NCBI GenBank assembly: GCA_951406725.2
Contig: OX597815.1
Coordinates: 154,628,001-154,692,000, forward strand
Length of the DNA: 64,000 nt
Direction of reading: 5' to 3'
From: Octopus vulgaris
Lineage: Eukaryota
Part shown: piece by piece, positions 12,591 through 61,940 of the stretch
Layout of the letters: every line of letters begins with the position of its first letter
How positions within the stretch are numbered: position 1 is the first letter of the stretch
The notes under the pieces: generated by a model
Told to the model about the DNA's origin: nothing
The model's database searches: none
What the model saw: the letters and a program-made list of their open reading frames with translations, nothing else
Program-made: the position numbers and the translations under genes

Positions 12591-12608
12591 TTTAGGCATA
12601 TATATATA

Positions 12609-12810
12609 GTGATGTAAATATGCCATTTGAATATGGCTAACCCCTAAGGGTGGATGCTACTGTAGTTTTTAGCCCCAGGAAGACATCTCCTCCAGCTGGC
12701 TATAGACACACTTTCTGTGCCCTATCCACCCTTAGGGGTTAGCCATATTCAAATGGCATATTTACATCACGACGTGTTTCTGCTACTGTTGATAACTCAC
12801 ACTGATATTT

Positions 12811-12815
<5 letters not shown>
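12609..12815. mobile_element. Inverted fragment of the HHR-bearing 351-bp repeat family (see 26162), inserted in (TA)n
   Basis: Perfect 47-bp inverted repeat (12609-12655 / 12724-12770); sequence closely matches the ends of the 26162-26906 palindrome; TA runs on both sides. Confidence 0.85.
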
Positions 12816-25160: not shown

Positions 25161-26325
25161 GCGCCAATATGATGATTACAAGTGATGCCGTACTGGTGGC
25201 TTAACTTGATTAAATCTTTCGACTTGGTGCCCCACCTTGACTGCAACCCAATAAATGAAATAATTAAAAGAATATAACAGAAGATAGAAGATTCTACTTG
25301 TCTGAAGAATTACATTATTTATTGACTCATGAGATTTGAACTCAGTTGGATATAATTTGGGAGAGATTTGGCTGCTATTTCTAGTATATTGAACAACTAT
25401 ATAGAGATTCCTTTCTAAATTATACACATACTTGAGCACTAGTTTAATCGTGATAGAGAAAACCCATTATCAAAGTCGTTACAGCCTTGACAATTCATCA
25501 CTTGTTCCACAGTCACAGCCAGCATTTTACTAATGTGTTCTTCCTTCTTTAAAAAAGCTCTGAGGAAGAAACTGAAGAAGACTTAGCAGTAGTTTCTTGT
25601 AGTTTCTCTCGTTGGATCGTATTTACATTGTGATATTGGTTTGATGAGTATTAATTTTTTTTTTCTTTTAAATTTGATTTATATTTATTACTGCTTGATT
25701 GTTTTGATTATGACCAGGATATATGTTTGTTGTTTGAAAGACATCACAAATGGCTATACGAGGAAGAAGTATAACTGTGCAACGCTCGTAACTTGACAAA
25801 TGGTATCTAAGGTGTCGGAAATCAATTCGTATGCATTGTCACTCCATGGTTTCATATTATGTTTGTTTTATTTCACTTCTCTAGCGTTTCCTTACCTTTC
25901 ATTTTTCTCTTGCTTGTTTAGTTTAGTATAACGTCAGTGTAATTTATCTAACACACACACACATGTATATATATATATATAATCATATCAAAAGGAAATG
26001 GAATCCACTTGTGGTATTCAACACGCTAGAAAGAACAGCTAGTTTCTATAACCACATTTTTCTTTGATATCATTAAATAGTGTAAGTTTTTGAATAATTA
26101 TATTAAAAAGGATCCGTAAAACACTTCGTGACGTATAACACTTCGTGACGTAAAACACATCATGACGTATATTTACCATTTGAATATGACTAACCCCTAA
26201 GGGTGAATGCTACTGTAGTTTGTAGCCCCAGGAGGACACCTCCTCCAGCTGGCTATAGACACACTTTCTGTGCCCTATCAGTATTTGCAAAGGGAAGCCA
26301 TCCTTCTCGTTTTCAACTCATGATG

Positions 26326-26370
26326 CACAGGGACTCGAGTTTCAGGGTATTGACCCGTCATCGGCGTGTG
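26326..26370 (-). ncRNA. Minimal type I hammerhead ribozyme, variant copy
   Basis: Minus strand reads cacacg CCGATGA cgggt-caat-accct GAAAC tcga GTC cctgtg; U4C core change and one stem I mismatch. Confidence 0.6.
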
Positions 26371-26697
26371 ACAATCATAGTTGCCGACGAGAAGTTGGTT
26401 CCCTTCACAAATACATATACTTTTTCCAGTATCGATTGACACTGATATTGAAAAAGTGAAATCAAACAATGATAAATCTCAGAGCGAGTTATAAACAGTA
26501 GCAGCAACACATCGTGACGTATATTAGCCATATTCAAATGGCAAATATACGTCACGATGTGTTGCTGCTACTGTTTATAACTCAATCTGAGATTTATCAT
26601 TGTTTGATTTCACTTTTTCAATATCAGTGTCAATCGATACTGGAAAAAGTATATGTATTTGTGAAGGAACCAACTTTTCGTCGACAACTGCGATTGT

Positions 26698-26742
26698 CAC
26701 ACGCTGATGACGGGTCAATACCCTGAAACTCGAGTCCGTGTG
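26698..26742 (+). ncRNA. Minimal type I hammerhead ribozyme
   Basis: Stem I cacacg/cgtgtg, core CTGATGA, stem II gggt-caat-accc (C.U at its base), GAAA, short stem III within the palindrome actcgagt, GUC cleavage triplet at 26734-26736. Confidence 0.85.
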
Positions 26743-26902
26743 TATCATGAGTTGAAGACGGGAAGGATGGCTTCTCTTTGCAAATACTGATAGGACACAG
26801 AAAGTGTGTCTATAGCCAGCTGGAGGAGGTGTCCTCCTGGGGCTACAAACTACAGTAGCATTCACCCTTAGGGGTTAGCCATATTCAAATGGTAAATATA
26901 CG

Positions 26903-26966
<64 letters not shown>

Positions 26967-59985: not shown

Positions 59986-60443
59986 CCTTCGTGGGCTGTC
60001 TAGAGTAAACATTATCTGAGAGAAATTTTCTTTAAGTTGTAGAAATGCTAAGAACATTTTTTTTGGCTGCTATTTCTACTAAGTTCAGTATGTGGCAAAG
60101 TAATTTATCTTACTAAGCCCTAATTATACAATGTAAAATTTTGAATTCGCCTTAAATGGTCCATTTACATACTGAACACTTGGTGAAATTGATTAATTAA
60201 TTAATTTTACCCTCAATTGTTGATATTATAATTCATTTCTCTCGGTCATACTGCCTCGGTTCTCGCGGTTAAAATATAATGTTTGCTAGATAGACCACGT
60301 GGGTGGGAGCGGATTGAAGATATTTACGCCTGCGCATTTTGAATTTGTTGACACTGTTAGTCGGAGTGGTTCATCTGAAGCGATAACTTCGCTGATAGGT
60401 AAAGTTCCTTCTTTTTAGTGTTTCCAAATCCAAATTAAGAAAT

Positions 60444-60506
60444 TTTGAGCTGACGATAGAAATGCTGATTTTATTTGGCTAATCTTGAAACGTTGACGTA
60501 CTCAAA
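60444..60506 (+). ncRNA. Type I hammerhead ribozyme motif, array unit 1
   Basis: Stem I tttgag/ctcaaa; CTGACGA; imperfect 30-nt stem II (aga/tct and gctga/ttggc); GAAA; stem III acg-ttga-cgt; GUA triplet at 60498-60500. Confidence 0.72.
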
Positions 60507-61006
60507 CGATCTATGTACTTGTGATATTTTTCTGTATTTACCTCCAAACCTTCGTGGGCTGTCTAGAGTAAACATTATCTGAGAGAAATTTTCTTTAAGT
60601 TGTAGAAATGCTAAGAAAATTTTTTTTGGCTGCTATTTCTACTAAGTTCAGTATGTGGCAAAGTAATTTATTTTACTAAGCCCTAATTATATAATGTAAA
60701 ATTTTGAATTCGCCTTAAATGGTCCTTTTACATACTGAACACTTGGTGAAATTGATTAATTAATTAATTTTACCCTCAATTGTTGATATTATAATTCATT
60801 TCTCTCGGTCATACTGCCTCGGTTCTCGCGGTTAAAATATAATGTTTGCTAGATAGACCACGTGGGTGGGAGCGGATTGAAGAAATTTACGCCTGCGCAT
60901 TTTGAATTTGTTGACACTGTTAGTCGGAGTGGTTCATCTGAAGCGATAACTTCGCTGATAGGTAAAGTTCCTTCTTTTTAGTGTTTCCAAATCCAAATTA
61001 AGAAAT

Positions 61007-61069
61007 TTTGAGCTGACGATAGAAATGCTGATTTTATTTGGCTAATCTTGAAACGTTGACGTACTCAAA
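61007..61069 (+). ncRNA. Type I hammerhead ribozyme motif, array unit 2
   Basis: Identical to 60444-60506; GUA at 61061-61063. Confidence 0.72.
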
Positions 61070-61568
61070 CGATCTATGTACGTGTGATATTTTTCTGTAT
61101 TTACCTCCAAACCTTCGTGGGCTGTCTAGAGTAAACATTATCTGAGAGAAATTTTCTTTAAGTTGTAGAAATGCTAAGAAAATTTTTTTGGCTGCTATTT
61201 CTACTAAGTTCAGTATGTGGCAAAGTAATTTATTTTACTAAGCCCTAATTATATAATGTAAAATTTTGAATTCGCCTTAAATGGTCCTTTTACATACTGA
61301 ACACTTGGTGAAATTGATTAATTAATTAATTTTACCCTCAATTGTTGATATTATAATTCATTTCTCTCGGTCATACTGCCTCGGTTCTCGCGGTTAAAAT
61401 ATAATGTTTGCTAGATAGACCACGTGGGTGGAAGCGGATTGAAGAAATTTACGCCTGCGCATTTTGAATTTGTTGACACTGTTAGTCGGAGTGGTTCATC
61501 TGAAGCGATAACTTCGCTGATAGGTAAAGTTCCTTCTTTTTAGTGTTTCCAAATCCAAATTAAGAAAT

Positions 61569-61631
61569 TTTGAGCTGACGATAGAAATGCTGATTTTATT
61601 TGGCTAATCTTGAAACGTTGACGTACTCAAA
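61569..61631 (+). ncRNA. Type I hammerhead ribozyme motif, array unit 3
   Basis: Identical to 60444-60506; GUA at 61623-61625. Confidence 0.72.
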
Positions 61632-61909
61632 CGATCTATGTACTTGTGATATTTTTCTGTATTTACCTCCAAACCTTCGTGGGCTGTCTAGAGTAAACAT
61701 TATCTGAGAGAAATTTTCTTTAAGTTGTAGAAATGCTAAGAAAATTTTTTTGGCTGCTATTTCTACTAAGTTCAGTATGTGGCAAAGTAATTTATTTTAC
61801 TAAGCCCTAATTATATAATGTAAAATTTTGAATTCGCCTTAAATGGTCCTTTTACATACTGAACACTTGGTGAAATTGATTAATTAATTAATTTTACCCT
61901 CAATTGTTG

Positions 61910-61940
<31 letters not shown>

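What the first reader, a model, noticed from the sequence alone, without database searches (positions are those of the whole stretch)
26118..26906. 745-bp fold-back of a terminally redundant 351-bp hammerhead unit
Seen: the right arm is one unit with a 32-bp terminal redundancy (26524-26555 = 26875-26906, period 351) holding a minimal type I HHR (26698-26742) with a palindromic stem III loop. The left arm is its reverse complement. The inversion axis sits exactly on the unit's own mini-hairpin gccat-attcaa-atggc, and the left end has stuttered ~17-bp repeats (aacacttcgtgacgta). Known: minimal HHRs with palindromic loop 3 occur in Penelope pLTRs and metazoan retrozymes and act as dimers; inverted pLTRs are typical of PLE insertions. 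Inference: hairpin-primed fold-back cDNA synthesis. A transcript from either strand would form ~365 bp of dsRNA (ADAR/Dicer substrate).
Basis: partly seen in the sequence, partly recalled or inferred. Interest (0 to 1): 0.75.

Follow-up and report, generated by a model that had tools for sequence, protein, structure and literature searches.

The report
Two-armed Penelope-type hammerhead retrozyme insertion
This palindrome is one of many back-to-back insertions of a 352-base protein-free jumping repeat that carries a predicted self-cutting RNA motif, and the family's ends show two fixed copying start points used one per arm, so it was likely written by a Penelope-type enzyme copying one RNA from both sides of a DNA cut rather than by a hairpin folding back.

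Summary
The palindrome, 32-bp redundancy, hammerhead motif, axis hairpin and 17-bp stutter are real. But the locus is not special: the unit is a young, dispersed 352-bp non-LTR retrozyme (106 loci examined), and 49 of 105 loci are head-to-head inversions. Copies end at two fixed points about 46 nt apart (A, B), mostly on (TA)n: the Penelope 'tail'. 38 of 40 two-armed loci use one A and one B end; the arms share source alleles (118 of 123 polymorphic calls, 83 expected); in 13-18 of 33 neither arm can be a copy of the other. An autonomous Penelope-like family in this genome obeys the same rule (14 of 15). Best reading: priming from both target strands on one RNA, joined by microhomology, not hairpin fold-back. 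This locus is an A+A outlier with a near-symmetric junction, so fold-back stays possible here (about 0.3). The family core is CCGAUGA (U4C); the right arm's canonical core is a minority change. No mobilising partner and no RNA evidence found. The scan noted the same two-start pattern before, for other retrozyme families in this genome.

The parts
26154..26531 (-). Left arm: 378 nt of the retrozyme unit, unit positions 15 to 352 to 40; its 3' end points outwards
   Evidence: L001; 13 differences from the family majority sequence
26524..26906 (+). Right arm: 383 nt, unit positions 1 to 352 to 32; ends at start site A
   Evidence: position 32/35 is the commonest family end
26524..26542 (.). Head-to-head junction: 8-nt imperfect overlap (26524-26531) on the unit's own mini-hairpin (26527-26542); loop reads in the + (right-arm) sense
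   Evidence: hairpin kept by a compensatory C-G/T-A change in the older sister subfamily; same junction in 2 genomic places
26698..26742 (+). Type I hammerhead motif, right arm; canonical CUGAUGA here by a minority C-to-T change at a CpG; predicted cut after 26736
   Evidence: activity untested
26326..26370 (-). Type I hammerhead motif, left arm; family-type CCGAUGA core plus a stem I mismatch
26875..26906 (+). Terminal redundancy (second passage through unit positions 1-32), a result of copying more than one unit from start site A
26115..26169 (-). 17-bp stutter = unit positions 24-40 (the hairpin at start site A), 3.2 copies; the two extra copies share a change absent from the arms, so at least one duplication is likely later DNA slippage
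   Evidence: position 35: 152 T, 1 A in the family
26907..26963 (.). (TA)28 target microsatellite at the right 3' end
   Evidence: 126 of 154 family 3' ends are followed by (TA)n or (ATT)n
26000..26099 (.). Older, unrelated dispersed repeat fragment that forms the left flank (no TA run and no target-site duplication at the left end)
12606..12815 (.). Second, small head-to-head copy of the same family in this window, with one A end (35) and one B end (77), TA on both sides

Best explanation
This is one insertion of a young, dispersed, non-coding 352-bp hammerhead retrozyme family whose head-to-head arms were likely made by a Penelope-like (PLE) reverse transcriptase-endonuclease priming from both strands of a cut in AT-rich/(TA)n DNA on one template RNA. 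Shown: the family, its two fixed 3' ends (unit positions about 32-35 = A and 78-81 = B), the TA targets, the one-A-one-B rule, shared source alleles in both arms, non-nested arms, and short microhomologies at the junctions. Inferred: the two ends are the two internal reverse-transcription start sites that give the PLE 'tail'; a dimeric enzyme uses one site per DNA end; the two cDNAs, both of the same sense, are joined at their 3' ends through short inverted matches, which the mini-hairpin supplied here; arms longer than one unit come from a circular monomer or a homogeneous tandem transcript. At this locus the left end is atypical (start near 40 or a trimmed B end, then slippage). The locus itself is predicted to be a dead end as a circle source: each strand holds one hammerhead, and it would be buried in about 360 bp of duplex.
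For: Unit found at 116 matches among 40 scored of 3550 candidates, with a 9-unit tandem array; 95 exact 29-mer core hits. 106 distinct loci; 49 of 105 (tandem array set aside) are head-to-head; of 40 with both outer ends at A or B: 38 A+B, 2 A+A, 0 B+B, p=7e-10; 9 others have one non-standard end; in the pattern-selected subset 17 of 18. Arms share 39% of non-majority alleles versus 5.7+-2.0% in 2000 permutations (35 loci); 118 of 123 agreements at polymorphic columns, 83 expected. Non-nested arms in 18, 16 or 13 of 33 at tolerance 0, 12, 25 nt. Overlap of 2 nt or more at 16 of 24 junctions without filler, chance 0.16, p=4e-8. Inner and outer redundant copies within an arm agree at 63 of 65 polymorphic calls. 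Older sister subfamily (about 80% identical) uses the same two ends. An autonomous RT+GIY-YIG family with a different terminal repeat shows 14 of 15 two-armed loci A+B with a 41-nt tail. PMC11167929 (main text read): a purified PLE cuts and extends both strands, starts at two internal sites that define the tail, is predicted to be a dimer, and does not need hammerhead cleavage.
Against: This locus is one of only 2 A+A cases, has a near-symmetric in-register junction on a hairpin, lacks a left TA run, and carries C at inner position 19 where both outer copies carry T, which a hairpin state would explain. Near-symmetric junctions are in mild excess in the family (10 of 33 versus 5.1, p=0.02), and 15-20 of 33 loci are nested, so fold-back is not excluded for them. 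Arm-to-arm gene conversion could add to allele sharing. PMC11167929 saw no difference in start site between strands in vitro. No autonomous element sharing this unit was found in the two PLE families checked. The first 30 loci were the best full-length matches, so long arms are over-represented.
Confidence: 0.65

Rival explanations
1. Hairpin-primed fold-back at this locus (first reader; akin to the self-priming proposed in PMC3846280): cDNA primed at the right TA run ran 384 nt, folded at the mini-hairpin and copied itself; a template switch at the end gave positions 33-40 and the stutter.
For: In-register near-symmetric junction on a conserved hairpin, loop in the right-arm sense, no B end, no left TA run, 5 shared alleles, inner C19 that perfects the hairpin; mild family excess of near-symmetric junctions.
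Against: Left arm passes the right arm's end; the only other locus with this junction has a B end and is not symmetric in length; impossible for 13-18 of 33 A+B loci; A+A also occurs at an asymmetric locus (L069).
Confidence: 0.27
2. Two independent RNAs or two successive insertions into the same TA run gave the two arms.
For: TA runs attract nested insertions (L026, L030, L151 abut other PLE copies); arm divergence here (17 of 370) is near the between-locus level.
Against: Allele sharing far above random pairs, including the 150A-158G-227G-340T haplotype seen only in this locus's two arms; no TA between arms; strict A+B rule.
Confidence: 0.05
3. A foldback/MITE-type DNA transposon with long terminal inverted repeats, or an assembly artefact.
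For: Long inverted arms.
Against: Inner ends vary freely, outer ends are two different unit positions, tandem arrays exist, 56 of 105 loci are not head-to-head; arms differ at 15 sites; left junction seen in independent reads.
Confidence: 0.03

Closest known systems
Metazoan non-LTR retrozymes (Cervera and de la Pena 2020, PMC7229834, passages seen; Li, Clavereau and Pollet 2026, 10.64898/2026.07.22.740005, abstract to discussion read)
   Same: About 350-bp non-coding, self-paired (z = -7.1), 43% GC unit with a type I hammerhead, dispersed and in tandem arrays, co-existing with PLEs; stem II with a mismatch at its base as in axolotl HHR_Amex2.
   Different: Mostly dispersed 1-1.5-unit and head-to-head insertions; U4C core in the young subfamily; circular RNA and cleavage not shown here; no pLTR homology to an autonomous PLE found.
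EN+ Penelope-like element insertions with inverted 5'-truncated copy and 30-40-bp tail (PMC3846280 passages and Discussion; PMC8557442 passages; PMC11167929 main text)
   Same: Two 3' ends, tail on one arm only, head-to-head inversion, (TA)n targets, hammerhead in the repeat.
   Different: No ORF; tail 43-49 nt; the literature seen explains the inversion by self-priming (PMC3846280) or the tail by endonuclease resolution (PMC8557442) or by two start sites (PMC11167929), without the quantitative one-A-one-B and same-template tests made here.
L1 twin priming (recalled; PMC2837659 seen only as a search listing)
   Same: Both target strands prime on one RNA; inverted arms joined by microhomology.
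   Different: In L1 the second primer anneals by homology at a variable internal site and the arms barely overlap; here both starts are fixed and the arms overlap over most of their length.
Minimal PLE hammerheads (PMC4209133, results and discussion read)
   Same: Short palindromic helix III, extra nucleotide between A9 and G10.1, G10.1-C11.1.
   Different: 4-bp helix II with an extra U before G12; U4C, a change reported to lower activity in vitro yet tolerated in a viroid (PMC3088659, passage).

Membership tests
Non-LTR retrozyme | Small (170-400 nt) non-coding unit, GC under 45-50% | tested here: met
   352 nt, 43% GC; no open frame of 110 aa or more over the locus
Non-LTR retrozyme | Type I hammerhead in each unit | tested here: inconclusive
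   Motif conserved in copies and in all 9 array units, but young-family core is U4C and Rfam gives no hit; older subfamily CUGAUGA in 14 of 15 readable cores, 15 of 30 truncated or unmatched
Non-LTR retrozyme | Tandem copies in the genome | tested here: met
   9-unit array L139 and arms up to 733 nt
Non-LTR retrozyme | Highly self-paired RNA | tested here: met
   z = -7.1 against 100 shuffles
Non-LTR retrozyme | Self-cleavage and circular RNA in vivo | not testable with these tools
   needs cleavage assay and RNase R / divergent RT-PCR
PLE-type insertion | Two 3' ends separated by a short tail, tail on one arm | tested here: met
   ends cluster at 32/35 and 78/81; 38 of 40 A+B
PLE-type insertion | Head-to-head inverted 5'-truncated copy | tested here: met
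   49 of 105 loci
PLE-type insertion | AT-rich microsatellite target | tested here: met
   126 of 154 3' ends; this locus only on the right
Autonomous PLE | RT plus GIY-YIG ORF between the repeats | tested here: not met
   none in the element or attached to any of 106 copies as shared flank
pLTR of a known local PLE | Sequence homology of the unit to an autonomous element's terminal repeat | tested here: inconclusive
   none in 2 young PLE families; other families not checked
Foldback/MITE DNA transposon | Fixed, identical terminal inverted repeats with target-site duplication | tested here: not met
   outer ends differ (A versus B), inner ends vary, no TSD here

The most novel reading that the evidence does not exclude
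A Penelope enzyme dimer holds one small retrozyme RNA, probably a circle, at two start sites about 46 nt apart and copies it from both ends of one cut, one site per end; the head-to-head palindrome with a tail on one arm is then the normal product of PLE transposition, for autonomous elements too, and it overturns self-priming as the source of PLE inversions. The young family spread with a weakened (U4C) ribozyme, which would mean that cleavage is dispensable or protein-assisted.
Probability: 0.5. Interest if true: 0.65.

Novelty: new member of a known kind. Interest (0 to 1): 0.42.

Why it matters
The locus itself is ordinary: one of dozens of such palindromes. The family data turn two open questions into direct tests: how PLE inversions and the one-sided tail arise, and whether PLE enzymes mobilise retrozymes. 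The strict one-A-one-B pairing with a shared template is a sharp prediction for the existing in vitro PLE assay. Such insertions also seed the genome with 100-370-bp near-perfect palindromes that would form dsRNA if transcribed.

Tried and rejected
Rfam scans found no hammerhead model; the miRNA hits are only the palindrome and microsatellites. Search for the mobilising PLE: no flank shared by copies that encodes a protein; two young autonomous PLE families (811-aa and about 1000-aa frames) have no homology to the unit beyond nested insertions and an 18/20 match at E=0.24; more distant relatives of the unit (L020, L069, L146, L150) are also ORF-less fragments. My first count that 21 of 33 loci exclude fold-back was too strong because it ignored shifts by one unit; the corrected count is 13-18 of 33. 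A-to-I footprint: among alleles shared within a locus A>G 8 versus T>C 6 distinct, p=0.36, no support. Stutter as three RT re-initiations: rejected in part, the two extra copies share a private change; re-initiated fragments occur at 3 of 154 ends, plus L018 seen as a separate hit. No target-site duplication; no empty allele seen among the joints shown. Expression: no RNA holder listed and no RNA run was laid, so transcription, host gene and editing remain open. No earlier scan note matched this sequence or place. Not-in-print statement rests only; supplements of PMC11167929 and of the bioRxiv preprint were not seen and may bear on start-site pairing.

Full report
Observation. Rfam does not call the hammerhead. 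A short-read contig from another sample spans the stuttered left junction; nothing spans the whole palindrome.

The family. The window lies in a 2.8-Gb animal genome (earlier scan notes call it cephalopod, not tested here). The unit is a repeat: 3550 first-look candidates, 40 scored, 116 matches; 95 exact hits of a 29-base core; a 9-unit tandem array. I gathered 106 distinct loci: the best matches of two DNA searches, the pattern hits, and a few others. Copies are about 2.2% from their majority sequence. An older sister subfamily, about 80% identical, has 80 exact hits of a 25-base motif.

Ends. With the tandem array set aside, 49 of 105 loci are head-to-head and 56 are not. The 3' ends cluster at unit positions 32/35 (A) and 78/81 (B), and 126 of 154 are followed by (TA)n or (ATT)n. 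Of the 49, 40 have both outer ends at A or B: 38 A+B, 2 A+A, 0 B+B (p=7e-10); in the pattern-selected subset 17 of 18. The window holds a second small A+B copy at 12606-12815. This is the PLE tail, described as present on one of the inverted repeats (PMC3846280, PMC8557442, passages) and shown in vitro to lie between two internal RT start sites (PMC11167929, main text). An autonomous RT+GIY-YIG family found beside locus L026 has its own 41-nt tail; of 20 regions I fetched (6 picked as inverted RT pairs, 14 as intact hits), 15 were two-armed and 14 of these A+B, 1 B+B.

One template, two primers. The arms of a locus share 39% of their non-majority alleles against 5.7+-2.0% for shuffled pairs (35 loci) and agree at 118 of 123 polymorphic calls, 83 expected, so they come from one source (later conversion may add to this). 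Yet in 18, 16 or 13 of 33 simple A+B loci (tolerance 0, 12, 25 nt) neither arm is contained in the other in any register, which a fold-back copy requires. Junctions show overlaps of 2 nt or more in 16 of 24 cases without filler (chance 0.16) and short fillers in 9 of 33. Inner and outer passages through the same position agree at 63 of 65 polymorphic calls, as for a circle read more than once or a homogeneous tandem transcript; these two are not told apart. The simplest model: both ends of a cut prime reverse transcription on one RNA, one at A and one at B, and the two same-sense cDNAs are joined by short inverted matches. The purified anole PLE cuts and extends both strands and is predicted to be a dimer (PMC11167929), though it showed no strand difference in start site. 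The dimer and the site assignment are inferred.

This locus. It is an outlier: A+A (40 and 32), near-symmetric, no left TA run; the left flank is an older unrelated repeat. The same hairpin junction exists in only one other place, L032, which has a B end and a 75-nt arm. For fold-back: symmetry, a hairpin kept by a compensatory change, inner C19 against outer T19 in both arms, and a mild family excess of near-symmetric junctions (10 of 33 versus 5.1, p=0.02). Against: the left arm passes the right arm's end by 8 nt. The stutter is unit positions 24-40, the hairpin at site A; its two extra copies share a change found once in 153 family calls, so one duplication is likely later slippage. I put dual priming at about 0.65 and fold-back at about 0.27 for this locus, and dual priming higher for the family.

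The ribozyme. The young family carries CCGAUGA (53 of 54 unselected copies, 114 of 120 overall); the older subfamily carries CUGAUGA (14 of 15 readable cores). The right arm's canonical core is a C-to-T change at a CpG; the left arm has U4C and a stem I mismatch. U4C lowers activity in vitro but is tolerated in a viroid (PMC3088659, passage); minimal PLE hammerheads cleave poorly (PMC4209133) and cleavage is not needed for insertion in vitro (PMC11167929). The active fold (-7.5 kcal/mol) is less stable than an alternative (-13.1). In a read-through transcript of either strand the single hammerhead would sit in about 360 bp of duplex, so this locus is predicted to be no source of circles.

What is known and what is not. 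Non-LTR retrozymes and their proposed PLE mobilisation are published (PMC7229834, passages; 10.64898/2026.07.22.740005, parts 1-3 of 5), as are inverted copies and tails. In six literature searches I did not find the quantitative one-A-one-B, same-template, non-nested argument; PMC3846280 (Discussion) proposes self-priming instead. Earlier notes of this scan reached a like reading for other retrozyme families of this genome; my reading was written before seeing them and they are not independent support. Their suggestion of fixed RNA edits is not supported in this family. No partner PLE was found and no RNA data were obtained.

Verdict. Interest 0.42, carried by the testable mechanism rather than by the locus.

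Noticed in passing
window 59986-61911: A second hammerhead retrozyme: about 3.4 tandem units of 562-563 bp, canonical CUGACGA core with long stem II at 60446, 61009, 61571, ending on a TA run; relatives in L030, L143.
   Followed up: partly
window 12606-12815: Small head-to-head A+B copy of the same 352-bp family between TA runs.
   Followed up: yes
L216 4125-7870 (G000:C1:202197000-202206200): Young autonomous PLE family (111 of 111 scored hits at 92-99% identity) with an upstream frame of about 480 aa overlapping the 811-aa RT/GIY-YIG frame at a U-UUU-UUA slippery site, intact in 20 of 20 copies; min-hammerhead with a U3-A8 core; forms 5-8-kb head-to-head palindromes. Frameshifted ORF1 is noted for PLEs in PMC8557442 Fig. 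1 legend.
   Followed up: partly
L238 (G000:C8:23386890-23391026): Second very young PLE family, about 1000-aa C-rich frame, 3' region rich in CA repeats.
   Followed up: no
L148 1162-2605 and 6383: Third hammerhead tandem repeat, period 481, with an inverted copy, near a GIY-YIG PLE fragment.
   Followed up: no
window 26000-26099; L242-L252: Left flank belongs to another abundant repeat that also forms TA-flanked head-to-head pairs (948 candidates).
   Followed up: partly
L020, L069, L146, L150: Distant (about 60-65%) relatives of the unit with hammerhead-like cores, also ending on TA runs: the retrozyme lineage is old and has had several waves.
   Followed up: partly
L139 3400-6547: The 9-unit tandem array is not flanked by TA and has A instead of T before GAAA in every unit, like the older subfamily.
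   Followed up: no
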